A stretch of 64,000 nt of DNA from Escherichia coli (GTDB lineage: Bacteria > Pseudomonadota > Gammaproteobacteria > Enterobacterales > Enterobacteriaceae), in assembly GCF_024502345.1 (NCBI RefSeq), contig NZ_JALDNN010000001.1, one strand, 5' to 3'. Within the stretch, counting starts at the first letter, position 1. Every line of letters starts with the position of its first letter. A program made the translations under genes and the position numbers. The notes below the pieces were generated by a model. That model searched no databases, was not told the DNA's origin, and was given only the letters and a program-made list of their open reading frames with translations. This document shows positions 3,397 through 15,782 of this stretch, in pieces.

Positions 3397-4146
3397 ATGG
3401 CTACCTACCGACACGACCCTGATCTTGAATTTCTGCGCCACTGCCATCGTGACGATCTGGATTTACTGGTTTCTGTGCTTATCTGCGATCCGAAAGACGG
3501 ACTGGCACGCATCACGGAAACGCTGACCTATGATCCTCAGTATAAAAAACACAAGCCCAACCACCCGCGCTACTGGGATGCCATTGCCGCCGAGGTTCAG
3601 ACGTTTGGGGCGAACAGCTTTGCCACGCTGCTCCGCTGGGGTAAAGGGGTGCTGTACCGGGAAATTCTCACCGATGCCTGCGATAAAATGAAGGTGAACT
3701 ACAACAACAAATCCAGTGTTGAAACCATTGAAATGAATCTGCTGATGAAGATCCTGGAGAAAAGTCTTGAGAAGATGACGCCTGACCAGCTAAAGACCGT
3801 GGCGGAAGAATTGCAGACAGGCTACAGCAACCCCACGCCGGAGTTGCTGACCATGGCAATCCAGGCGGGGATAAAAACATCCGGGTTTGCGGCCTATCAG
3901 ATGGCACTTGTTGTCACAAATGGTGTGGCGAAAGCCCTGTTAGGCAGAGGGCTGACCGTTGCAGGAAATGCCATGCTGACGCGTACCATGGGCGCTTTTG
4001 CCGGTCCCGTGGGCTGGGTGCTCAGTTCTCTCTGGCTGCTGATTGATTTAGCCGGTCCCGCATACCGGGTGACGCTACCATCCTGCATTTTTATTGCCTA
4101 CATGCGCCAGAAGCATCTTTATTCACCTGAGAATACTGACGTTTAG
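3397..4146 (+). CDS. YaaW-like (UPF0174 family) protein
   Basis: N-terminus ...DPDLEFLRHCHRDDLDLLVSVL... and overall length resemble E. coli YaaW as I recall it; glycine-rich hydrophobic C-terminal segment. Confidence 0.6.
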   Translation: MATYRHDPDLEFLRHCHRDDLDLLVSVLICDPKDGLARITETLTYDPQYKKHKPNHPRYWDAIAAEVQTFGANSFATLLRWGKGVLYREILTDACDKMKVNYNNKSSVETIEMNLLMKILEKSLEKMTPDQLKTVAEELQTGYSNPTPELLTMAIQAGIKTSGFAAYQMALVVTNGVAKALLGRGLTVAGNAMLTRTMGAFAGPVGWVLSSLWLLIDLAGPAYRVTLPSCIFIAYMRQKHLYSPENTDV

Positions 4147-4190
4147 CACTTACATTTAAGGTATTCAGACTTTAAAAAACTTCAGAGGGC

Positions 4191-4205
4191 GGACAAATCC
4201 TGTCC
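4191..4205. promoter_or_regulatory. palindrome GGACA-N5-TGTCC (copy 2 of 3), candidate operator
   Basis: gcGGACAaatccTGTCCgc, 44 nt upstream of the ATG at 4249. Confidence 0.45.
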
Positions 4206-4248
4206 GCTACTGCTGGCATCATTTCCCGGCTAAATTCGGAAATGATGT

Positions 4249-4962
4249 ATGACGCTGATAACACAAGAAAACGAACATGACAGACTGGCAACCCGCCTTT
4301 CCATCATCCTGAGCCGTTTGTTTCAGGGTGAAAAGCTGCATATCGGGACGCTGGCAGAAGAATTTGGAGTGACGACGCGAACGCTGCGACGGGATTTCAA
4401 CGTCCGTCTGACCTACCTTGATATTGAACAGAGCAACGGCGTGTATCAGCTTGCCTCACATTACTTTCGTCGCCGCACGGAACGGGATATGAAGATACTG
4501 GCGAGGTTGCTGCATCTTGACCGTCTGTTACCCGCGATGGATGCCAAACTACTGAGCCTGATGCTTGACGGGGAACGTCCCTCGCCATACAGGATTATGC
4601 TACCGGAGCCGCGCCAGAAACCCACCCTTTTCGGTGATTTCAGCAGACTGACGCTCGCCATACTTAACCAGACCCAGGTGCGTATCAGAACCGACGAAAA
4701 CGTCAGCCATACCGTTCATCCCTACCGTCTGCTTTGCAGCCATGCGGAGTGGTTTCTTGCCGGATGTACGTCATCGGGCGTGTTCGTTATTTCCCTGTCC
4801 CGAATCAGGCTGGTTGAGGTATTACCGGATACAACGTTTGAGATCGATAACACACTCATTTCGCTGATTGAACAGTCTGACTTTATGGAAGCCTTACCCC
4901 ACATGAACATTATTCATCAGATAATGCATTACGGGAGTAAACAGACGAATAATCGTAATTAA
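4249..4962 (+). CDS. HTH transcriptional regulator, YfjR-like (DeoR-type HTH plus WYL-type C-terminal region)
   Basis: N-terminal HTH RLSIILSRLFQGEKLHIGTLAEEFGVTTRTLRRDFN; paralogous to the ORF at 47188. Confidence 0.6.
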   Translation: MTLITQENEHDRLATRLSIILSRLFQGEKLHIGTLAEEFGVTTRTLRRDFNVRLTYLDIEQSNGVYQLASHYFRRRTERDMKILARLLHLDRLLPAMDAKLLSLMLDGERPSPYRIMLPEPRQKPTLFGDFSRLTLAILNQTQVRIRTDENVSHTVHPYRLLCSHAEWFLAGCTSSGVFVISLSRIRLVEVLPDTTFEIDNTLISLIEQSDFMEALPHMNIIHQIMHYGSKQTNNRN

Positions 4963-5393
4963 AATCACAACATATTATTAGTGATGATTAAATCACATTA
5001 ACATGATAAGTGAGAAAGTTATGATTATCGATAAAGAATACGCACTTGTAAATGCAACAGCAAGACTTAACACTGACCTGAGGGATTATGAATATGAAAT
5101 AAACAACGCCGCCATCATAACATTTGGCAATGACCTCATTGAGGTAATCGTATATCAGTTCAGCTTTGTCATCAGCATCAGGGCAGAGGGTGAAAAAATA
5201 AAGCACGGCCTACTTGTTAACTTCGGTAAAAATATAGCAAGACAGGTTTCATCACTTTGTGCATCCGCAATGCGAGTCTACCCGAATGAAAAACACAAAC
5301 CGAGCCGTCAGCTTTTCCATTGCATAAATTAGTTTGTGCAAAGACTGTACTACCGACACGCAATAAATTAAAATAGGCCAGCTAATATAACAT

Positions 5394-7271
5394 ATGAGGT
5401 TTATGATGGCTGGCCAGTATGAAAAAGCAATAACGATAAAACAAGCGATAGATTCAATTAATTTACGCCACTATCTTCTGCCTGCAATTCAGAGGAAGTT
5501 CGTCTGGAGCAGCAGTCAAATATGTTTGCTGTTTGATTCCATCATGCGAGACTACCCGATAAACTCTTTCATGATGTGGGATATCCGTAGTGCCAGTATT
5601 AAAAATGATTACAAATTCTATGAATTCCTGAAAGAATACTGTCAGCGATTTAATGAAGAAAACCCCTGCGTAGCAACAAATGCTGGATTTCATGATTTCA
5701 AGGCGGTGATTGATGGTCAGCAGCGTCTCACATCATTATATATTGGATTGTGTGGAACGTATGCGTATAAACAGCCCCGGGTGTGGTGGCCTTCGGCACA
5801 GGATGATCGCATCCTGCCGCCCAGAAAGCTTTACGTCGATTTAACAGCGCCACTTAATTCAGACGATGAGCTCATGATGAAGTATAACTTCAGGTTCCTG
5901 ACCGACAAGCAATACGCTGATTCACTTACAGACAACAAGCATCACTGGTTCTGCCTGCACGAAATATTCAAATACGAGCAACATGATTCGCCTGATGATA
6001 TTTTATTTAACGTTGTCGTACCAGAACTCGAAAAAAGAGGACTCATTTCCAGTGAATTTTCCAGAAAAACATTACTGAGACTTTATACAAAAATAAGAAC
6101 TGAGAACATCATCCACTACTTCAATGAGAGTAGTCAGGATATTGACCATGTGCTGGATGTTTTCATACGCACGAACAGCGGGGGGACAAAACTTGAGTTC
6201 TCCGACTTACTGATGTCAATAGCGGTAGCGCACTGGCAGGGTGATTTCAGAAGAGAACTGGATGAACTGACAAAAAACATTTATCAGAATAATGAAATGG
6301 GGTTTTATATTGAAAGAGACTGGTTCTTAAAAACCAGCCTGATGCTTATTGACTCTGACGTCCGGTTCAAAGTAAAAAACTTCACTTCAGAGGAGGTCGG
6401 TAAGATACAACAACAATGGTCTGAAATAAAATCCTGCATCAAGGAGACTTTTATTCTTATCAGGCGATTCGGCATCAATCCACAGTCTTTGATATCTAAA
6501 AATGCAGTCATTCCTGTGGTCTACTGGCTTTACAAAAAGCAAACCAGTGGACATCCATTATATACAACGATTAACCTCCTGAATAAAAACCACAATGAAC
6601 GCTCAGTAATTAGCCAGTGGTTTTACATGGTACTTCTGAAAGGGATCTTTGGAAGCCAGGCAGATGCGCTACTCACGAGTATCAGAGATGTAATGAAAAA
6701 TAGTCTTTCAGATATTCACTTTCCTCTTGAAAAGATTATTGACAGATATAAAGGCTCGAATAAAGACCTCAGATTTGACGACGAATACATCGAAAGCCTT
6801 CTCAATATCAGATATGGCGAAGGTCGTTGCCGCGCACTATTGCATCTTCTGTTCCCTGAAATGAATCCGACCGAGGTGTTTCATATTGATCACCTTCACC
6901 CAAGAAATCACTTCTCAAAGAAATATCTTGAAAAATTAGATTATGTTGCGAACTCACCAGAGAACCTCAGCTTTTATGAAAACCCGGAACACTGGGACAC
7001 CATACCTAATCTTCATTTACTGAATCATTCTCAGAATATAAGTAAACAGGATACTTCCCTGAAACAATGGCTATCTCAGCCATCAAACAACTATTCGCCA
7101 TCAATGCTGTTAGTTTCAGATGAAAATATTGAGTTCAGTCGCTTCCCGGAATTCTACAATGAACGAAGAAACGCCCTGAAGCAAAGACTACTGAATCGGG
7201 TATTTCTTACAACAAAAATAGATTCATCACCATCCACAATCGATACGGATGAAGAAATTCTCACCGACTGA
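5394..7271 (+). CDS. DUF262/DUF1524 protein, GmrSD-like putative type IV (modification-dependent) restriction endonuclease
   Basis: N-terminal DUF262 hallmark ...AVIDGQQRLTSL... (DGQQR motif); C-terminal His-rich HNH-like region ...FHIDHLHPRNHF...; sits directly upstream of hsdM. Confidence 0.75.
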   Translation: MRFMMAGQYEKAITIKQAIDSINLRHYLLPAIQRKFVWSSSQICLLFDSIMRDYPINSFMMWDIRSASIKNDYKFYEFLKEYCQRFNEENPCVATNAGFHDFKAVIDGQQRLTSLYIGLCGTYAYKQPRVWWPSAQDDRILPPRKLYVDLTAPLNSDDELMMKYNFRFLTDKQYADSLTDNKHHWFCLHEIFKYEQHDSPDDILFNVVVPELEKRGLISSEFSRKTLLRLYTKIRTENIIHYFNESSQDIDHVLDVFIRTNSGGTKLEFSDLLMSIAVAHWQGDFRRELDELTKNIYQNNEMGFYIERDWFLKTSLMLIDSDVRFKVKNFTSEEVGKIQQQWSEIKSCIKETFILIRRFGINPQSLISKNAVIPVVYWLYKKQTSGHPLYTTINLLNKNHNERSVISQWFYMVLLKGIFGSQADALLTSIRDVMKNSLSDIHFPLEKIIDRYKGSNKDLRFDDEYIESLLNIRYGEGRCRALLHLLFPEMNPTEVFHIDHLHPRNHFSKKYLEKLDYVANSPENLSFYENPEHWDTIPNLHLLNHSQNISKQDTSLKQWLSQPSNNYSPSMLLVSDENIEFSRFPEFYNERRNALKQRLLNRVFLTTKIDSSPSTIDTDEEILTD

Positions 7272-7474
7272 ACGTTCAGCCCCGATAGTATTGGGGCTTC
7301 AGTATTTATCATCAGCGCAACGTTTCTACTGGCCTGGCTGAAAGAGCATTGGCTACACAACCGGGCAAACGAACTCTCAGTGCAACGTATGACATACAAA
7401 GCCTGTCATCAATATGAAATTGCGATAAAATCGGGCCAATAACAGTACTTAAGAATCATACAACAGGATACAAA

Positions 7475-9031
7475 ATGACAAGCCTTCAGCAGCGTGCAGA
7501 GCTACACCGTCAAATCTGGGCCATTGCCAATGATGTCAGAGGCTCCGTAGATGGGTGGGATTTTAAACAGTATGTACTCGGTGCACTTTTCTACCGCTTC
7601 ATCAGTGAGAATTTTTCCAGCTACATGGAAGCAGGGGATGAGAGCATACATTATGCAGCACTTGATGACAGCATCATTACCGATGACATCAAAGACGATG
7701 CCATCAGGACTAAAGGCTATTTCATCTACCCGAGCCAGCTGTTCTGCAACGTTGCCGCTAAAGCGAACACCAACGACAGGCTGAATGCTGATTTAAACAG
7801 TATCTTCGTCGCTATAGAAAGCTCTGCCTACGGCTACCCGTCAGAGGCCGACATCAAAGGCCTGTTCGCCGATTTCGATACGACCAGCAATCGACTGGGG
7901 AACACAGTTAAAGACAAAAACAGCCGTCTTGCCGCGGTTCTGAAAGGGGTTGAAGGGTTAAAACTTGGTGACTTCAACGAACATCAGATTGACCTGTTCG
8001 GTGATGCCTATGAGTTCCTGATTTCTAACTATGCCGCAAATGCCGGTAAGTCAGGCGGTGAGTTCTTTACACCGCAGCACGTCTCCAAGCTGATTGCACA
8101 ACTGGCTATGCACGGGCAGACCAGCGTTAACAAAATCTACGACCCGGCAGCGGGTTCCGGCTCACTGTTGTTGCAGGCGAAAAAACAGTTTGATAACCAC
8201 ATCATCGAAGAAGGCTTTTTCGGTCAGGAAATCAACCATACGACCTATAACCTGGCGCGTATGAACATGTTTTTGCACAATATCAACTACGACAAGTTTG
8301 ATATCAAGCTGGGTAATACACTGACTGAGCCGCACTTCAGAGATGAAAAACCGTTTGACGCCATCGTATCTAATCCACCGTATTCGGTGAAATGGATTGG
8401 CAGCGATGACCCGACGCTGATTAACGATGAACGTTTTGCCCCGGCTGGCGTTCTGGCCCCCAAATCCAAAGCTGACTTTGCGTTTGTATTACATGCACTG
8501 AACTATCTTTCTGCCAAAGGTCGTGCTGCGATTGTCTGCTTCCCGGGTATTTTTTACCGTGGCGGCGCAGAGCAGAAAATCCGTCAATATCTGGTCGACA
8601 ATAACTATGTCGAAACCGTGATTTCACTGGCACCGAACCTGTTCTTTGGCACCACCATTGCCGTCAATATTCTGGTGCTGTCTAAACATAAAACGGATAC
8701 CAAAGTTCAGTTTATTGATGCCAGCGAATTATTCAAAAAAGAGACTAACAACAATATCCTGACCGATGCCCATATCGAACAGATTATGCAGGTATTTGCC
8801 AGCAAGGAAGATGTTGCTCATCTGGCGAAATCTGTCGCGTTTGAGACCGTTGTCGCTAATGACTATAACCTGTCGGTGAGCTGCTATGTAGAAGCGAAAG
8901 ATAACCGCGAAATTATCAATATTGCTGAGCTAAATGCAGAGCTTAAAACTACGGTTAGCAAAATCGACCAGTTGCGTAAAGATATTGATGCGATTGTGGC
9001 TGAAATTGAAGGCTGCGAGGTGCAGAAATGA
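7475..9031 (+). CDS. hsdM: type I restriction-modification system, N6-adenine DNA methyltransferase subunit HsdM
   Basis: 518 aa; NPPY motif ([10 protein letters not shown]); AdoMet-binding region [10 protein letters not shown]; stop overlaps the hsdS start (ATGA). Confidence 0.95.
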
Positions 9032-10200
9032 GCGAGTTGAGTTATCTGGAAAAATTGCTGGATGGGGTTGAGGTTGAGTGGAAATCATTGGGAGATGTTG
9101 TAAATTTTCAGCGCGGAAGGCGGCTCGTAAAATCTCAGTTAGAAACCAGAGGTAAATATGCGGTTTACCAAAACAGCATGACACCACTCGGTTACTATCA
9201 TGAGTATAATGTCGCAGCTCAATCTTCGTTCATTATCTGTGCGGGTGCAGCCGGTGAAATTGGTTATAGCGAAAATGAATTTTGGGCTGCCGACGATGTT
9301 CATTTCGCAATCACACCAGAATATATAAATGACAGGTTTTTGTTTCATTTTTTGTTGACGCAAAAGAATAAAATTTCAGGACAAGTACGCCGTGCCAGTA
9401 TTCCGCGTCTCTCAAAGTCAGTAATTGAAAAACTTGAATTCCCCATCCCCTGCCCGGATAATCCGGAAAAGTCCCTTGCCATCCAGTCTGAAATCGTTCG
9501 GATTCTGGATAAATTTACTGCACTTACCGCTGAGCTTACCGCTGAGCTTAACATGCGTAAAAAACAGTACAACTACTATCGCGACCAGTTGCTGAGTTTT
9601 GATGAGGGTGAGGTTGAGTGGAAGGCTTTGGAGGAAGTCTCAACTTTTGCTAATGGAAAGGGGCATGAAAAAGACATATCAGAAGACGGTAAATATATTG
9701 TTGTAAACTCTAAGTTTATATCTACCAATGGCGAAGTCGCCAAGTTATCAAACAAACAGCTATGCCCTCTTTTTAAAGACGATATTCTTTTGGTTATGAG
9801 TGACCTGCCCAATGGCAAAGCACTTTCAAAAACATTTATTGTTGATGAAGATCATAAATACACTTTAAACCAACGTATTGGTGGAATTACAGTAAAAAAC
9901 AGTAATGAATTACTCCCTAAGTTTTTGCACTATTTTTTAAATAGAACCCCGCAATTGCTGAAACATGACAATGGTGTTGATCAAACAAATTTGCGTAAAG
10001 GTCAAATACTTGAAGTAAAAATACCAATAATTTCACTCATCAAACAAGTTCAGATCGTTGAAACTCTTGATAAATTCGATACTTACACTAAGTCGATTTC
10101 AGAAGGCCTCCCGCGCGAAATCGAGCTGCGCCATAAACAGTACGAGTACTATCGTGATTTATTGTTCAGCTTCCCGAGACCAGAAACCGCCAGCAACTGA
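9028..10200 (+). CDS. hsdS: type I R-M specificity subunit HsdS (type IC-like)
   Basis: Two target-recognition domains separated by a conserved central region with the TAEL repeats (LTAELTAEL) and a related C-terminal repeat (...[14 protein letters not shown]). Confidence 0.9.
9523..9550 (+). repeat. 12-bp direct repeat CTTACCGCTGAG x2 (plus partial CTTA) in the hsdS central spacer region
   Basis: Read directly: cttaccgctgag cttaccgctgag ctta, encoding LTAE-LTAE-L. Confidence 0.9.
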
Positions 10201-10316
10201 CGGACCATTGATACCGGCAGGGTTTGTTCTCACCCGCCCGGTATCAGGCTTTAAGAATGCCGGAAGATGCTTCTGATACCCTTCCGGAATTTGCCAGATG
10301 ACGCACAGGATGCACC

Positions 10317-13300
10317 ATGACACAACAGATACACACCATTGCTGAATCCAATAACTTTATCGTCCTTGATAAATACACCAAAGTTCTGGAGAACGGCGAC
10401 AGCTACCAGAGCGAATCGGATCTTGAGCGGGAACTGATTCAGGACCTTCTGAATCAGGGCTATGAATTTATATCCGTTAAGTCACCGACAGCGATGCTGG
10501 CGAATGCACGGGACCAGCTTCAGCATCTTAATGGTGTGGTGTTTAACGAAAGTGAATGGCGGCGCTTCGCAGAGCAGTATCTGGACAGCCCCAGTGACAG
10601 CAGCCTGGACAAAACTCGTAAAATCCATATCGACTATATCTGTGATTTCACGTTTGATGACGGTCGTCTGGAAAACATCTATCTGATAGATAAAAAGAAC
10701 CTGCTGCGCAATAAGGTGCAGGTCATTCAGCAGTTTGAACAGACCGGCTCACACGCTAACCGTTATGACGTCACCATTCTGGTTAACGGCCTGCCACTGG
10801 TGCAAATCGAACTCAAAAAGCGCGGCGTGGCTATTCGTGAAGCCTTTAACCAGATACACCGTTACAGCAAGGAAAGCTTTAACAGCGACAACTCCCTGTT
10901 TAAATACCTGCAACTGTTTGTGATATCTAACGGAACCGATACCCGGTACTTTGCCAGTACCACTAAGCGGGATAAAAACAGCTTTGATTTCACCATGAAC
11001 TGGGCGAAGTCGGATAACACTCTGATTAAGGACCTGAAGGACTTTACCGCCACCTTCTTCCAGAAACATACCCTGCTGAATGTTCTGTTTAATTACAGCG
11101 TGTTTGACAGCAGCCAGACTCTGCTCGTCATGCGCCCCTATCAGATTGCCGCCACTGAGCGAATCCTCTGGAAAATTAACAGCTCATTTAAAGCGAAGAA
11201 TTGGTCAAAACCCGAAAGCGGCGGGTTTATCTGGCATACCACCGGGTCAGGCAAAACCCTGACCAGTTTTAAGGCTGCACGACTGGCAACCGAACTGGAC
11301 TTTATAGACAAAGTCTTCTTCGTGGTCGACAGAAAAGACCTTGATTACCAGACAATGAAGGAGTATCAGCGCTTTTCTCCGGACAGCGTCAACGGTTCGG
11401 ATAATACAGCAGGCCTCAGAAGAAACCTGGATAAGGACGATAACAAAATCATCGTCACAACCATTCAGAAACTCAATAACCTGATGAAAGCCGAAGCTGA
11501 CCTGCCCGTCTATCAGCAGCAGGTAGTGTTTATCTTTGATGAGTGTCACCGCAGCCAGTTTGGTGAGGCCCAGAAAAACCTCAAAAAGAAATTCAGACGC
11601 TTTTATCAGTTTGGTTTTACCGGTACGCCTATTTTCCCGGAAAATGCACTGGGGGCAGAAACCACAACCAGCGTGTTCGGGCGTGAGTTACATTCTTACG
11701 TCATTACTGATGCGATTCGTGATGAAAAAGTACTGAAGTTTAAGGTGGACTATAACGATGTCCGCCCACAGTTTAAGTCTCTTGAAACGGAAACAGACGA
11801 GAAAAAACTCAGCGCGGCTGAAAACCAACAGGCATTTTTGCACCCCCTGCGTATCCAGGAAATAACGCAATACATTCTCAATAACTTCCGGCAGAAAACA
11901 CACCGAACCTTCCCGGGAGCTAAGGGCTTTAACGCCATGTTAGCAGTTAGCAGCGTGGACGCGGCGAAAGCTTATTACACGACGTTTAAAATGCTACAGG
12001 AAGAAGCAGAGAAGAAATCTGGCAGCTATAAATGCCTTCGGGTGGCAACCATCTTCTCCTTTGCTGCAAATGAAGAGCAAAGCGCCATTGGTGATATTAC
12101 TGACGAAAGCTTTGATACCAGTGCAATGAACAGCAGCGCGAAGGAATTCCTGGATTCAGCCATTGATGACTATAACAATCACTTTAAAACCAATTTCAGC
12201 ACCGACAGTAACGGTTTCCAGAACTACTACCGCAATTTAGCTCAACGAGTGAAAAATCAGGATATTGACCTTCTCATCGTGGTGGGAATGTTCTTGACTG
12301 GCTTTGATGCCCCGACGCTTAACACTCTTTTCGTTGACAAAAACCTCCGTTATCACGGCCTGATGCAGGCATTTTCCCGCACAAACCGTATCTATGATGC
12401 CACCAAAACCTTCGGCAATATCGTGACTTTCAGGGATCTGGAGCGTCCGACCATTGATGCCATCACACTATTTGGCGACAAAAACACCAAGAATGTGGTG
12501 CTGGAAAAAAGCTACGAAGAGTACATGCAGGGCTTTACCGATGCGGCAACCGGTGAGGCTAAACGAGGTTTTATGGCTGTTGTTTCGGAGCTGGAGCAGC
12601 GCTTCCCTGACCCTGCCAGTATCGACAGTGAAAAAGAGAAAAAAGCCTTCGTCAAACTGTTTGGTGAATATCTGCGGGCAGAAAACATCCTGCAAAACTA
12701 TGATGAATTTGCCACGCTGAAAGCCCTGCAGAAGGTTGATATTAGTGACCCGGAAGCGGTAGAAACCTTTAAAGCAGAGCACTATGTGGATGATGAAAAA
12801 TTTGCTGAATTACAAACCATTCGTCTCCCGGCAGAACGTAAAGTTCAGGACTATCGCTCAGCATACAATGATATCCGGGACTGGCAGCGACGCGAAAAAG
12901 CATCAAACGACAGGGATAAATCAACCACAGACTGGGATGACGTGGTGTTTGAAATTGACCTGCTGAAGTCGCAGGAAATTAACCTGGATTACATCCTTGG
13001 TCTGATTTTCGACCACAATCGTCAGAAAAAAGGTAAAGAAGCCCTGACTGAAGAGGTCAGACGCTTAATCCGCTCAAGTCTGGGCAACCGTGCCAAAGAA
13101 GGTCTGATTGTTGACTTTATTCAGCAAACTAACCTTGATGACATGCCGGACAAGGCCAGTATCATTGATGCATTCTTTACCTATGCTCAGCGTGAACAGC
13201 AACGGGAAGCAGAGGCGTTGATTAAGGAAGAAAACCTCAATGAAGAGGCTGCAAGGCGCTATATCCGCACATCACTAAAACGGGAGTATGCCACCGAAAA

Positions 13301-13433
13301 TGGGACGGAGCTAAATGAGACGCTACCAAAGCTCAGTCCGCTGAATCCTCAGTACAAAACGAAAAAGCAGACTGTATTCCAGAAAATTGGGGCATTTATC
13401 GAAAAATTTAAAGGGGTTGGAGGACACCTCTAG
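10317..13433 (+). CDS. hsdR: type I R-M restriction subunit HsdR (SF2 helicase/translocase plus nuclease)
   Basis: 1038 aa; Walker A ([10 protein letters not shown]) and DEAD-box motif II ([10 protein letters not shown]). Confidence 0.95.
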
Positions 13434-13654
13434 ATGTCAGATAAAAGAACAATGCGCTACCGCAATTTATGGGTAAGATTGTATCTTTTAACCTGCATCA
13501 GACCTGTTATGATCGATGAGGCGCTGGTTAATGTTAATGCTAACTGGATGAGTTTTAATCGCTGATTCAGACAATTAGCGTCCAGAACTCACAGAAACCA
13601 GTGCTTGATTTTGGATGGTAAAGTGCTGAACGGACGTATCACAGGAGAATGCTT

Positions 13655-13993
13655 ATGAGCGTAACTATAAAAGACGATCGACTCCGTACCATCGCTACCT
13701 TTGACGGTAAAACCCTGAAAGACGACCGGCTCAGGACCATCGCAACGTTTGACGGTAAAACCCTGAAAGACGACCGGCTCAGAACCATCTCAACTTTTGA
13801 CGGTAAAACCCTGAAAGACGACCGACTCCGCACCATCGCTACCTTTGATGGCAAGACCCTGAAAGACGATCGACTCCGCACCATCGCAACATTTGATGGT
13901 AAAACACTTAAAGACGATCGACTCAGAACCATCGCGACAGTTAATGGTAATGTTAGTATTGTTGTTTTGGCGTTTGCTGCTCGGCTATTTTAG
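13655..13993 (+). CDS. small repeat protein: five 16-aa tandem repeats (KDDRLRTIATFDGKTL) and a hydrophobic C-terminal tail
   Basis: Copies differ almost only at synonymous codon positions in this frame (for example Arg as cgt, agg, aga, cgc), which argues for real coding sequence; AGGAGA 7 nt upstream of the ATG at 13655. Confidence 0.5.
   Translation: MSVTIKDDRLRTIATFDGKTLKDDRLRTIATFDGKTLKDDRLRTISTFDGKTLKDDRLRTIATFDGKTLKDDRLRTIATFDGKTLKDDRLRTIATVNGNVSIVVLAFAARLF
13670..13939 (+). repeat. 48-bp tandem repeat, about 5.6 copies
   Basis: Direct inspection; units begin AAAGACGA(C/T)CG(A/G)CTC... Confidence 0.9.
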
Positions 13994-14270
13994 GGCTAAG
14001 AGCCTATCTCAACAGAGATTAATACTTTACCCAAAAGATATAATATCAGTATCTAAAAGCCTGCACCGTCTGATTTTTAGTCATTGAATCGCGAGAACGG
14101 GAGATAATTTCTCTTCTATGGGTATAGGCTCATAATGGTAGGATTCTGGTAGCTTCGAAACGCCGTATTTAAGCAATACTTAAGTCATGAAGAACCAAAC
14201 TTAAACATTTTTCTCAAGGTAAACCAGTAAAAAACTGTTAGTGCTGATGGATCGTTTGGGCTCTTTTAAA

Positions 14271-14319
14271 GGGATTGAAAATCCCCGTGTCCTTGGTTCG
14301 ATTCCGAGTCCGGGCACCA
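14271..14319 (+). tRNA. tRNA-Phe 3' fragment (anticodon stem to CCA), not a complete gene; likely an island attachment-site remnant
   Basis: GGGATTGAAAATCCCCGTGTCCTTGGTTCGATTCCGAGTCCGGGCACCA matches the 3' two-thirds of enterobacterial tRNA-Phe (GAA anticodon) as I recall it; no matching 5' acceptor or D arm upstream. Confidence 0.7.
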
Positions 14320-14516
14320 AATTCATATCAACGGACCTCCACGGAGGTCCGTTTTTCGTTTCAGAACGCCACAATTTAAGCGTTCTGCCTCCAAATCAAT
14401 TCTACCGAACTCAACCAGATTCCCCCCACATCAACCCCATTGTGTGGGTATAATTGCGGGTATACCCCAGTTCGACAGAATTTGTACCCTCTTTAACGCA
14501 TTCAGAAGGCTGAACT

Positions 14517-15782
14517 ATGGCACTGACTGACGCAAAAATCCGGGCTGCAAAGCCCACTGACAAGGCTTATAAACTCACTGACGGGGCCGGCATGTTCCTG
14601 CTGGTTCATCCTAATGGTTCCCGTTACTGGCGTCTCCGTTATCGTATTCTGGGTAAGGAGAAAACCCTGGCACTTGGTGTGTATCCGGAAGTTTCTCTCT
14701 CCGAAGCTCGTACAAAACGGGATGAGGCCCGAAAACTGATTTCGGAGGGGGTTGACCCTTGCGAACAGAAAAGAGCTAAAAAAGTAGTCCCTGATTTACA
14801 ACTCTCTTTTGAACATATTGCACGACGCTGGCATGCCAGTAATAAACAATGGGCACAATCACACAGCGATAAAGTACTCAAAAGCCTCGAGACACACGTT
14901 TTCCCCTTTATCGGCAACCGGGATATCACAACACTCAGTACCCCGGACCTGCTTATCCCTGTTCGTGCTGCAGAAGCTAAACAAATTTATGAAATCGCCA
15001 GTCGTCTGCAGCAAAGAATATCTGCTGTAATGCGTTATGCCGTACAGTCTGGCATCATCAGATATAACCCGGCTCTGGATATGGCTGGTGCATTGACCAC
15101 GGTAAAACGCCAGCATCGCCCTGCTCTGGATCTTTCACGCCTGCCTGAACTTCTGTCGCGTATTGACGGTTATAAAGGCCAGCCTGTCACCCGACTGGCA
15201 GTTATGCTGAATTTACTGGTTTTTATTCGTTCCAGTGAACTCAGATATGCCCGCTGGTCTGAAATTGATATTGACAATGCCATGTGGACTATTCCAGCCG
15301 AACGCGAACCTCTGCCAGGCGTAAAATTTTCATACCGGGGCTCCAAGATGCGAACACCACATCTTGTGCCACTCAGCCAACAGGCTGTAGCCATACTGGC
15401 AGAACTTCAGACATGGGCAGGTGAAAATGGTCTGATCTTTACGGGAGCACATGACCCACGTAAACCAATCAGTGAAAACACCGTAAATAAAGCCCTGAGG
15501 GTTATGGGGTATGACACAACCCAGGATGTCTGTGGTCATGGATTCCGGGCGATGGCATGTAGTGCATTAATAGAATCAGGTTTGTGGTCCCGCGATGCTG
15601 TGGAACGCCAGATGAGCCATCAGGAGCGTAATGGTGTACGTGCTGCGTATATCCATAAAGCCGAACATCTGGAAGAACGTCGACTTATGCTACAGTGGTG
15701 GGCCGATTTTCTGGATGCAAACAGAGAAAGATTTATCAGTCCATTTGAATATGCAAAGATTAATAATCCATTAAAACAATAA
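14517..15782 (+). CDS. int: P4-type tyrosine integrase
   Basis: 421 aa; N-terminus MALTDAKIRAAKPTDKAYKLTDGAGMFLLVHPNGSRYWRLRYR is characteristic of P4-like integrases; lies about 200 bp downstream of the tRNA-Phe fragment. Confidence 0.9.
   Translation: MALTDAKIRAAKPTDKAYKLTDGAGMFLLVHPNGSRYWRLRYRILGKEKTLALGVYPEVSLSEARTKRDEARKLISEGVDPCEQKRAKKVVPDLQLSFEHIARRWHASNKQWAQSHSDKVLKSLETHVFPFIGNRDITTLSTPDLLIPVRAAEAKQIYEIASRLQQRISAVMRYAVQSGIIRYNPALDMAGALTTVKRQHRPALDLSRLPELLSRIDGYKGQPVTRLAVMLNLLVFIRSSELRYARWSEIDIDNAMWTIPAEREPLPGVKFSYRGSKMRTPHLVPLSQQAVAILAELQTWAGENGLIFTGAHDPRKPISENTVNKALRVMGYDTTQDVCGHGFRAMACSALIESGLWSRDAVERQMSHQERNGVRAAYIHKAEHLEERRLMLQWWADFLDANRERFISPFEYAKINNPLKQ

What the first reader, a model, noticed from the sequence alone, without database searches (positions are those of the whole stretch)
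13649..13993. Small tandem-repeat protein gene whose copies differ mainly at synonymous positions
A 48-bp unit is repeated about 5.6 times. In the plus-strand frame every copy encodes KDDRLRTIATFDGKTL (one A to S change), while the nucleotide copies differ at third positions and between Arg codon families. This is the signature of a translated repeat under purifying selection, not a neutral minisatellite. The protein ends in a hydrophobic tail and sits between hsdR and the tRNA-Phe fragment. I do not recognise the repeat.
Basis: seen in the sequence. Interest (0 to 1): 0.6.

Follow-up and report, generated by a model that had tools for sequence, protein, structure and literature searches.

The report
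Beta-flower repeat protein gene beside hsdR
The repeat is a real, selected gene for a small "beta-flower" protein, a family named in 2023 from predicted structures and already labelled as such in RefSeq, so it is a known family whose function nobody has yet tested.

Summary
A 48-bp unit is repeated 5.5 times at 13670-13935 inside a plus-strand ORF. Of the 12 variable columns, 11 are silent, giving pooled pS 0.48 against pN 0.03.

The gene (best start 13655, 112 aa) matches Pfam PF21785 Bflower_2 (E 1.7e-10). An identical protein is annotated "5-fold beta-flower protein" in E. coli RefSeq. The family was defined from AlphaFold models only (Durairaj et al. 2023).

My AlphaFold model (pLDDT 76) has 12 strands and a C-terminal helix. 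Its best solved-structure matches are the Tubby C-terminal domain and 12-stranded barrels. This allele therefore looks six-petalled, not five.

Alleles carry 1, 2, 4, 5 or 6 full units. The 2-, 4-, 5- and 6-unit alleles are in frame; the 1-unit plasmid copy looks like a remnant.

The gene is optional cargo at the end of a HEC-05/type IC restriction cassette. Enterobacterial relatives lie beside Bunzi, a type V retron and pVip. Distant relatives show no such pattern.

Function remains unknown.

The parts
13643..13647 (+). Shine-Dalgarno-like AGGAG, 7 nt upstream of the ATG at 13655
   Evidence: Read directly from the sequence. The spacing favours 13655 over 13649 as the start. RefSeq orthologues use the equivalent start.
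13655..13993 (+). Coding sequence of a 112-aa beta-flower family protein (12.7 kDa, pI 10.1, no signal peptide)
   Evidence: ORF list. Pfam PF21785 at E 1.7e-10, 41.2 bits, over residues 6-104. The protein is 100% identical to E. coli WP_020838577.1, annotated '5-fold beta-flower protein'. Composition.
13670..13909 (+). Five full 48-bp units, each encoding KDDRLRTI[A/S]TFDGKTL. Each unit is predicted to supply two strands of the barrel.
   Evidence: The model places strands at TIATF and TLKD of every unit.
13910..13957 (+). Sixth, degenerate unit (KDDRLRTIATVNGNVS). It supplies the last strand and the link to the helix.
   Evidence: strand 92-95.
13952..13990 (+). C-terminal hydrophobic helix (residues 100-111 in the model; tail NVSIVVLAFAARLF)
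   Evidence: The model gives helix H100-111 with pLDDT of only 52-62. The best 19-residue Kyte-Doolittle window averages 1.58 and contains polar residues, so it is borderline for a membrane span.
10317..13433 (+). hsdR of a type IC (EcoR124-family) restriction system; upstream neighbour, 221 bp away
   Evidence: NCBIfam TIGR00348 at E 6e-219. RefSeq orthologues are named 'EcoR124 family'.
5394..10200 (+). The rest of the conserved cassette: HEC-05 (5394-7271), hsdM (7475-9031), hsdS (9028-10200)
   Evidence: PADLOC HEC-05 at E 4e-231. hsdM TIGR00497. The cassette is 94-99% identical in Enterobacter and Pseudocitrobacter; the Mixta contig begins within the last 27 codons of hsdR.
14271..14319 (+). 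3' fragment of tRNA-Phe: the island-end direct repeat
   Evidence: Sequence read. No complete tRNA found. The identification rests on my knowledge of the enterobacterial tRNA-Phe sequence. The query that contains this stretch (13400-14350) matches 5425 of 5426 E. coli genomes, which fits a conserved tRNA-Phe segment.
14330..14353 (+). Terminator-like hairpin followed by a T run
   Evidence: It is the only terminator-like site downstream of the gene.
14517..15782 (+). P4-type tyrosine integrase of the next island
   Evidence: NCBIfam NF007246 at E 7e-74.

Best explanation
This is a genuine gene for a small, basic, cytoplasmic protein of the beta-flower family (Pfam PF21785, Tubby clan).

Predicted structure. 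Each 16-residue unit contributes two short antiparallel strands (TIATF, a DGK turn, TLKD) joined to the next unit by a charged DDRLR loop. The N-terminal SVTI strand, the five full units and the sixth partial unit together give 12 strands. These close into a shallow barrel, and the C-terminal hydrophobic helix is predicted to fill its core, as in the Tubby C-terminal domain.

Shown. The array changes by gain, loss and exchange of whole units. Selection keeps every unit at the same amino-acid sequence while silent sites drift.

Inferred. The ring of near-identical Lys/Arg/Asp loops is a multivalent binding surface. By analogy with Tubby it would bind an anionic, repeated ligand such as membrane phospholipid head groups.

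Shown. The gene is optional cargo at the outer end of a mobile HEC-05/type IC restriction cassette.

Not shown. Any role in phage defence or in the biology of mobile elements is undemonstrated.
For: Coding and under selection:
- 11 of 12 variable columns are silent; pS 0.48 against pN 0.028; permutation P below 1e-5.
- Orthologues in five genera stay in frame.

Family:
- PF21785 at E 1.7e-10 over nearly the full model length.
- RefSeq names the orthologues.
- The family and fold are described in PMC10584680.
- Profile and phmmer searches recover about 60 small proteins with the same layout: 16-residue xDGxxIxD repeats followed by a C-terminal hydrophobic segment.

Fold:
- AlphaFold2 with a 61-sequence alignment gives pLDDT 76, 12 strands and helix 100-111.
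- Foldseek against AFDB50 gives TM 0.82-0.88 to many 110-140 aa proteins. They carry the 'MORN repeat variant' and 'cell wall-binding' labels that the 2023 paper lists for beta-flowers.

Unit turnover:
- Alleles have 1, 2, 4, 5 or 6 full units.
- L025 equals L022 plus an exact duplicate of unit 3.
- L010 has three DNA-identical units.
- Window unit 1 differs by 2 nt from unit 3 of L022.
- Lineage-specific residues (R to H, I to L) occur in every unit of a lineage.

Optional cargo:
- 50 of 5426 complete E. coli genomes carry the gene, whereas 87 records carry the same hsdR allele at 95% identity or more.
- NCTC9967 has a different gene in the same slot.
Against: - No member of the family has a solved structure or a tested function (PMC10584680).
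- The model is of moderate confidence. It is weakest over the helix (pLDDT 52-62), and I could not inspect coordinates to confirm that the helix lies inside the barrel.
- Alleles with 2, 4, 5 and 6 full units would give 6, 10, 12 and 14 strands. One monomeric closed barrel cannot easily accommodate all of these. The short forms may oligomerise, may be inactive, or, in short-read assemblies, may be collapse artefacts.
- The loop motif [DNEQ]xxG quoted for the family reads DDRL here.
- Ligand binding is pure analogy.
- No promoter-like site was found upstream on the plus strand, and expression was not tested.
Confidence: 0.75

Rival explanations
1. It is a defence-linked accessory or effector. 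The beta-flower protein would work together with, or as an adjunct to, neighbouring anti-phage systems, for example as a membrane-acting or sensor component.
For: Enterobacterial homologues (49-100% identity) lie beside four different defence cargos:
- HEC-05 plus type IC restriction (window);
- Bunzi BnzA/BnzB (L010);
- retron type V RT plus CSD on about 4 kb ColE1 plasmids, in two diverged lineages;
- pVip on a 4773-bp Klebsiella plasmid.

On such tiny plasmids almost every gene is either backbone or selected cargo.
Against: - There is no PADLOC hit for the protein.
- The gene is absent from many copies of the same hsdR allele and from about 1275 records with 80%-identical hsdR.
- Transposase remnants separate it from Bunzi.
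- Distant family members sit among housekeeping and regulatory genes.
- Defence islands and small plasmids collect accessory genes of all kinds, and I computed no enrichment test.
- The retron and pVip plasmids share a replicon type (ColRNAI_rep_cluster_1987 for the two Klebsiella ones), so the gene could belong to the plasmid backbone instead.
Confidence: 0.15
2. It is a tail-anchored inner-membrane protein or small toxin. The C-terminal hydrophobic segment would span the membrane and the repeats would stay in the cytoplasm.
For: - Hydrophobic C-terminus with no signal peptide.
- The best 19-residue hydropathy window averages 1.58, which is borderline.
- Tolerance of 2 to 6 units is easier to explain for a flexible cytoplasmic array than for a closed barrel.
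- Model confidence is lowest over the helix.
Against: - The uninterrupted hydrophobic run is only about 12 residues and contains an Arg.
- Family members that do have N-terminal signal peptides keep the same short C-terminal segment.
- The family was defined on models where the helix is enclosed by the barrel.
Confidence: 0.1
3. It is a dedicated partner of the type I restriction enzyme, for example a regulator of HsdR.
For: In E. coli, Enterobacter, Pseudocitrobacter and Mixta the gene lies about 220 bp downstream of hsdR on the same strand, with no terminator between them, while the downstream genes differ.
Against: - All these cassettes are 94-99% identical, so they amount to one recently spread module, not independent associations.
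- The same hsdR allele occurs without the gene.
- Homologues at 82%, about 52-58% and 49% identity are not next to any hsdR.
Confidence: 0.05
4. It is a non-coding or decaying repeat: a DNA-level element or a spurious ORF.
For: - Decayed copies exist in S. hippei and in Klebsiella plasmids.
- No promoter-like site was found upstream.
Against: - The DNA is less conserved than the encoded peptide.
- The pattern of change is specific to one frame.
- The gene is conserved across genera with dN/dS about 0.04.
- There is no Rfam match.
Confidence: 0.03

Closest known systems
Beta-flower proteins, Pfam PF21785 Bflower_2 (Durairaj et al., Nature 2023; archetype UniProt A0A494VZL1)
   Same: - Significant HMM match.
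- Small size and tandem beta-hairpin units.
- Lys/Arg and Phe in the unit, and a C-terminal hydrophobic helix.
- Known only from predicted structures.
- RefSeq already uses this name for the orthologues.
   Different: - This allele has six hairpins (12 predicted strands), not ten strands.
- Its units are 96-98% identical to each other, against 25-79% in the other family members I sampled.
- The loop motif reads DDRL, not [DNEQ]xxG.
- It lies on mobile elements next to defence genes. The paper did not discuss genomic context in the sections I read.
Tubby C-terminal domain and LURP-one-related proteins (PDB 1i7e, 2q4m; Pfam clan CL0395)
   Different: - No detectable sequence similarity, and Foldseek finds nothing.
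- Strands and loops are much shorter here.
- According to PMC10584680 the topology is circularly permuted and the helix runs the other way.
- Phosphoinositide binding was not tested.
Bacterial 'MORN repeat variant' and 'cell wall-binding repeat' small proteins in AFDB
   Same: Their models superpose on this one at TM 0.85-0.87.
   Different: Sequence identity is only 18-25%. Pfam finds no MORN hit in this protein. Those labels are automatic and untested.

Membership tests
Pfam PF21785 Bflower_2 (beta-flower family) | Significant match to the family HMM over most of its length | tested here: met
   E 1.7e-10, 41.2 bits, query residues 6-104 against model positions 3-101 of 112. The paper states a general inclusion threshold of 27 bits.
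Pfam PF21785 Bflower_2 (beta-flower family) | Tandem short beta-hairpins that close into a shallow antiparallel barrel | tested here: met
Pfam PF21785 Bflower_2 (beta-flower family) | C-terminal hydrophobic helix enclosed by the barrel (present in many members) | tested here: inconclusive
   Helix 100-111 is predicted, but at pLDDT 52-62. Its position inside the barrel is inferred only from the Tubby superposition.
Pfam PF21785 Bflower_2 (beta-flower family) | Semi-conserved [DNEQ]xxG motif at the hairpin tip | tested here: not met
   The equivalent loop reads D-D-R-L in every unit. Relatives such as P0110 have DAKG and DDRG. The paper calls the motif semi-conserved, so this does not exclude membership.
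Five-petal subclass implied by the name '5-fold beta-flower protein' | Ten strands in five-fold symmetry | tested here: not met
   The sequence holds an N-terminal strand, five full units and a partial unit, which makes six hairpins. The model has 12 strands. Its solved-structure neighbours are 12-stranded. The 4-unit allele of E. coli ET220 would fit five petals.
Tubby C-terminal domain family | Sequence homology to the Tubby domain, and a phosphoinositide-binding site | tested here: not met
   There are no sequence hits to Tubby chains. The similarity is at fold level only. Ligand binding cannot be tested with these tools.
Accessory subunit of type I restriction-modification systems | Co-occurrence with hsdR across independent systems | tested here: not met
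   The gene occurs in 50 genomes, whereas 87 records hold the same hsdR allele and about 1275 hold an 80%-identical hsdR. Homologues elsewhere lack an adjacent hsdR.
Known anti-phage defence proteins (PADLOC-DB 2.0) | Match to a model of a known or candidate defence protein | tested here: not met
   There are no hits for this protein or for the plasmid homologue P0021.
Tail-anchored or single-pass membrane proteins | A hydrophobic segment long enough to span a membrane (about 18-20 residues) | tested here: inconclusive
   The uninterrupted hydrophobic run is about 12 residues and includes an Arg. The best 19-residue window averages 1.58, which is borderline.
Neutral minisatellite or non-coding tandem repeat | Differences between copies spread without regard to codon position | tested here: not met
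   10 of 12 variable columns are at position 3, and permutation P is below 1e-5.

The most novel reading that the evidence does not exclude
The enterobacterial beta-flower proteins could be a generic small accessory of mobile anti-phage cargo. They are found beside type IC restriction/HEC-05, Bunzi, type V retrons and pVip. Their petal number would be tuned by gain and loss of whole units (three to seven hairpins), which would change barrel size or oligomeric state and so the target bound. That would give the first function for the beta-flower fold and a new kind of component shared between defence systems.
Probability: 0.12. Interest if true: 0.65.

Novelty: already known. Interest (0 to 1): 0.3.

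Why it matters
The gene itself is already catalogued. What this check adds is modest:
- a clean natural example of a symmetric repeat protein whose units are held identical at the protein level while the DNA drifts and units are swapped, duplicated and deleted;
- a hint that the RefSeq label "5-fold" does not fit the commonest allele;
- a recurring position beside anti-phage genes on islands and tiny plasmids.

The last point offers an experimental handle on a fold that has no known function.

Tried and rejected
- NCBIfam hmmscan of the protein gave only noise. The RefSeq name must therefore come from another rule.
- PADLOC gave no hit.
- The PDB sequence search gave only periodicity artefacts, namely designed Kelch-like SAKe proteins, Sex-lethal and Cas9.
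- Foldseek against the PDB gave nothing significant.
- Rfam found nothing in 13300-14600.
- AlphaFold without an alignment failed (pLDDT 48).
- The minus-strand 97-aa ORF 13639-13932 was rejected. Its units differ at 24 pairwise amino-acid positions, against 4 in the plus frame.
- The phage collection gave only one weak hit, in a Gordonia phage.
- Neighbourhoods of distant family members showed no shared theme.
- The exact 112-aa sequence is not in the 15-billion-protein collection.
- Many 64-aa forms come from short-read assemblies and may partly be collapsed repeats. The 2-unit form does also occur in an E. coli chromosome from the complete-genome RefSeq set, a record titled 'whole genome shotgun sequence'.

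Full report
**Observation.** Tandem Repeats Finder reports a 48-bp period, 5.5 copies and no indels at 13670-13935. The repeat lies in a plus-strand ORF, 13649-13993. The five full units all encode KDDRLRTIATFDGKTL, apart from one Ala-to-Ser change. A sixth unit degenerates into KDDRLRTIATVNGNVS and runs into IVVLAFAARLF.

Twelve nucleotide columns vary among the five full units. Ten are at codon position 3. One is the CGN/AGR arginine switch. One is the Ala/Ser change. Pooled Nei-Gojobori values are pS 0.48 and pN 0.028. None of 100,000 random placements of 12 substitutions produced one or fewer amino-acid changes. The other five reading frames give 24-68 pairwise amino-acid differences between units against 4 in this frame, and four of them contain stops.

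The Shine-Dalgarno AGGAG at 13643-13647 fits the ATG at 13655, not the one at 13649. This gives a 112-aa protein, the same start that RefSeq uses for the orthologues.

**Identity.**
- A megablast against complete E. coli genomes shows the orthologous gene annotated "5-fold beta-flower protein". The protein of strain 21AR0133 (WP_020838577.1) is 100% identical to the window's.
- Pfam gives PF21785 Bflower_2 at E 1.7e-10 over nearly the whole model.
- The family comes from Durairaj et al. 2023 (PMC10584680). They found the fold among AlphaFold models. It is a shallow symmetric barrel of short hairpins with four-, five- or six-fold symmetry, often enclosing a C-terminal hydrophobic helix. They placed it in the Tubby clan. 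No function and no experimental structure were reported.
- A phmmer scan of 1.8 billion representatives and a profile search recovered about 60 small proteins with the same plan: 16-residue xDGxxIxD repeats followed by a short hydrophobic C-terminus. Some have signal peptides and some do not.

**Fold.** AlphaFold2 without an alignment failed. With a 61-sequence alignment it gave pLDDT 76, twelve strands and a C-terminal helix at 100-111. The helix is the least confident part.
- Foldseek against AFDB50 finds many 110-140 aa proteins at TM 0.82-0.88.
- Foldseek against the PDB and sequence searches of the PDB find nothing real.

The sequence contains an N-terminal strand, five full units and a partial unit. 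That makes six hairpins, so this allele looks six-petalled and the label "5-fold" seems not to fit it. I could not inspect coordinates. The closure of the barrel and the burial of the helix therefore rest on these superpositions.

**Evolution of the array.** Alleles from E. coli, Enterobacter, Pseudocitrobacter and Mixta are all in frame.
- Full-unit numbers are 5 in 48 of the 50 E. coli genomes that have the gene, 4 in ET220, 2 in ES1 and 6 in Mixta tenebrionis. A Klebsiella retron plasmid carries an unannotated copy with only 1 full unit, which looks like a remnant.
- The Mixta allele is the Enterobacter sichuanensis allele plus an exact duplicate of unit 3.
- A metagenomic relative (82% identity) has three DNA-identical units.
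- The window's unit 1 differs by 2 nt from unit 3 of the E. sichuanensis allele.
- Lineage-specific residues occur in every unit of a lineage: His for Arg in one, Leu for Ile in another.

Units are therefore continually duplicated, deleted and exchanged, while selection holds the peptide constant. Unit-to-unit identity is 96-98% in this clade against 25-79% in the other family members I sampled. A Succinatimonas orthologue has the same 5.5-unit layout with diverged units.

Two side lineages have decayed. S. hippei has a stop or frameshift. A Klebsiella plasmid lineage has a +1 frameshift after unit 1, with a possible restart.

**Context.** The window upstream of the gene is a defence island: JukA-like, WYL, HEC-05, and hsdM, hsdS and hsdR of a type IC system. 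The island ends at a tRNA-Phe 3' fragment and is followed by another integrase.

The block HEC-05-hsdMSR-beta-flower is 94-99% identical across genera, while the genes downstream differ. It is thus one recently spread module with the gene at its outer edge.

The gene is optional:
- 87 E. coli records hold the same hsdR allele, but only 50 genomes hold the gene.
- About 1275 records hold an 80%-identical hsdR without it.
- NCTC9967 has another ORF in the slot.

Other enterobacterial homologues lie near different defence genes:
- Bunzi, separated from the gene by transposase remnants;
- type V retrons (RT plus CSD) on ColE1 plasmids of about 4 kb, in two diverged lineages;
- a pVip-like radical SAM gene on a 4773-bp Klebsiella plasmid.

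The literature on type V retrons does not mention such a gene. Distant family members have unrelated neighbours. The defence link is therefore suggestive only, and it is confined to one clade.

**Mechanism.**
- Shown: the gene is coding and under purifying selection, it belongs to the family, and its units turn over.
- Predicted: a closed 12-strand barrel around the protein's own C-terminal helix.
- Inferred by analogy only: the symmetric ring of charged loops (pI 10.1) binds an anionic repeated ligand such as phospholipid head groups.
- Not shown: any role in defence, and any expression.

**Verdict.** But the protein belongs to a family described in 2023, and the exact protein is already named in RefSeq. 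I score novelty as already known and interest as modest. The residual interest lies in the petal-number polymorphism and in the neighbourhood of defence genes.

Noticed in passing
window 3397-13433: Defence island: JukA-like (3397-4146), WYL-domain protein (4249-4962), HEC-05 (5394-7271), then type IC hsdM, hsdS and hsdR. The JukA partner gene and the completeness of the system were not examined.
   Followed up: partly
window 14271-15782: A tRNA-Phe 3' fragment and a terminator-like hairpin are followed directly by a second P4-type integrase. This suggests two islands inserted in tandem at a tRNA-Phe site.
   Followed up: no
window 13434-13565: A 43-aa ORF starts on the hsdR stop codon (TAGATG) in the 221-bp spacer before the beta-flower gene. 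It was not assessed.
   Followed up: no
L031 3237-3575; L034 3653-3919; L037 1662-1952; L033 3993-4142 (minus strand): Beta-flower homologues lie about 575-590 bp upstream of type V retrons (RT plus cold-shock-domain effector) on ColE1-type plasmids of about 4 kb from E. coli, Salmonella, Klebsiella and Serratia. Between the two lineages the RTs are 84% identical and the CSD effectors 64%. The E. coli/Salmonella plasmid homologue is about 50% identical to the window protein and the Klebsiella/Serratia one 82-87%. The retron papers I read do not mention this gene.
   Followed up: partly
L032 1349-2239 and 2774-3064: A 4773-bp Klebsiella ColE1-type plasmid carries a pVip-like radical SAM gene (PADLOC E 1e-25) convergent with a beta-flower gene. 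That gene has a +1 frameshift after its first unit.
   Followed up: partly
L002 1410-2729: In E. coli 21AR0133 a PrrC-like anticodon nuclease (PADLOC E 5e-129) is inserted between hsdS and hsdR of the same cassette, as in the classical EcoprrI locus.
   Followed up: no
L010 1623-4789: In the metagenomic relative at 82% identity, a Bunzi system (BnzA, BnzB) lies upstream of the gene, separated from it by IS256-family transposase remnants.
   Followed up: partly
L025 363-689; L004 6056-6250; L005 5986-6276: Whole-unit copy-number alleles: 6 full units in Mixta tenebrionis, 2 in E. coli ES1 and 4 in E. coli ET220. RefSeq calls the short forms 'hypothetical protein'.
   Followed up: yes
L027 7989-8420: The Succinatimonas hippei copy is interrupted after four units and continues in another frame. 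It is either a pseudogene or a sequencing error in a draft scaffold. A 1549-aa ORF with no family match lies just downstream.
   Followed up: partly
L003 6578-7555; L046 5558-6724: The slot after this hsdR allele varies between strains. Some have beta-flower plus a PDC-S08-like 5'-nucleotidase and HrgA. NCTC9967 has a 388-aa protein with no PADLOC match.
   Followed up: partly
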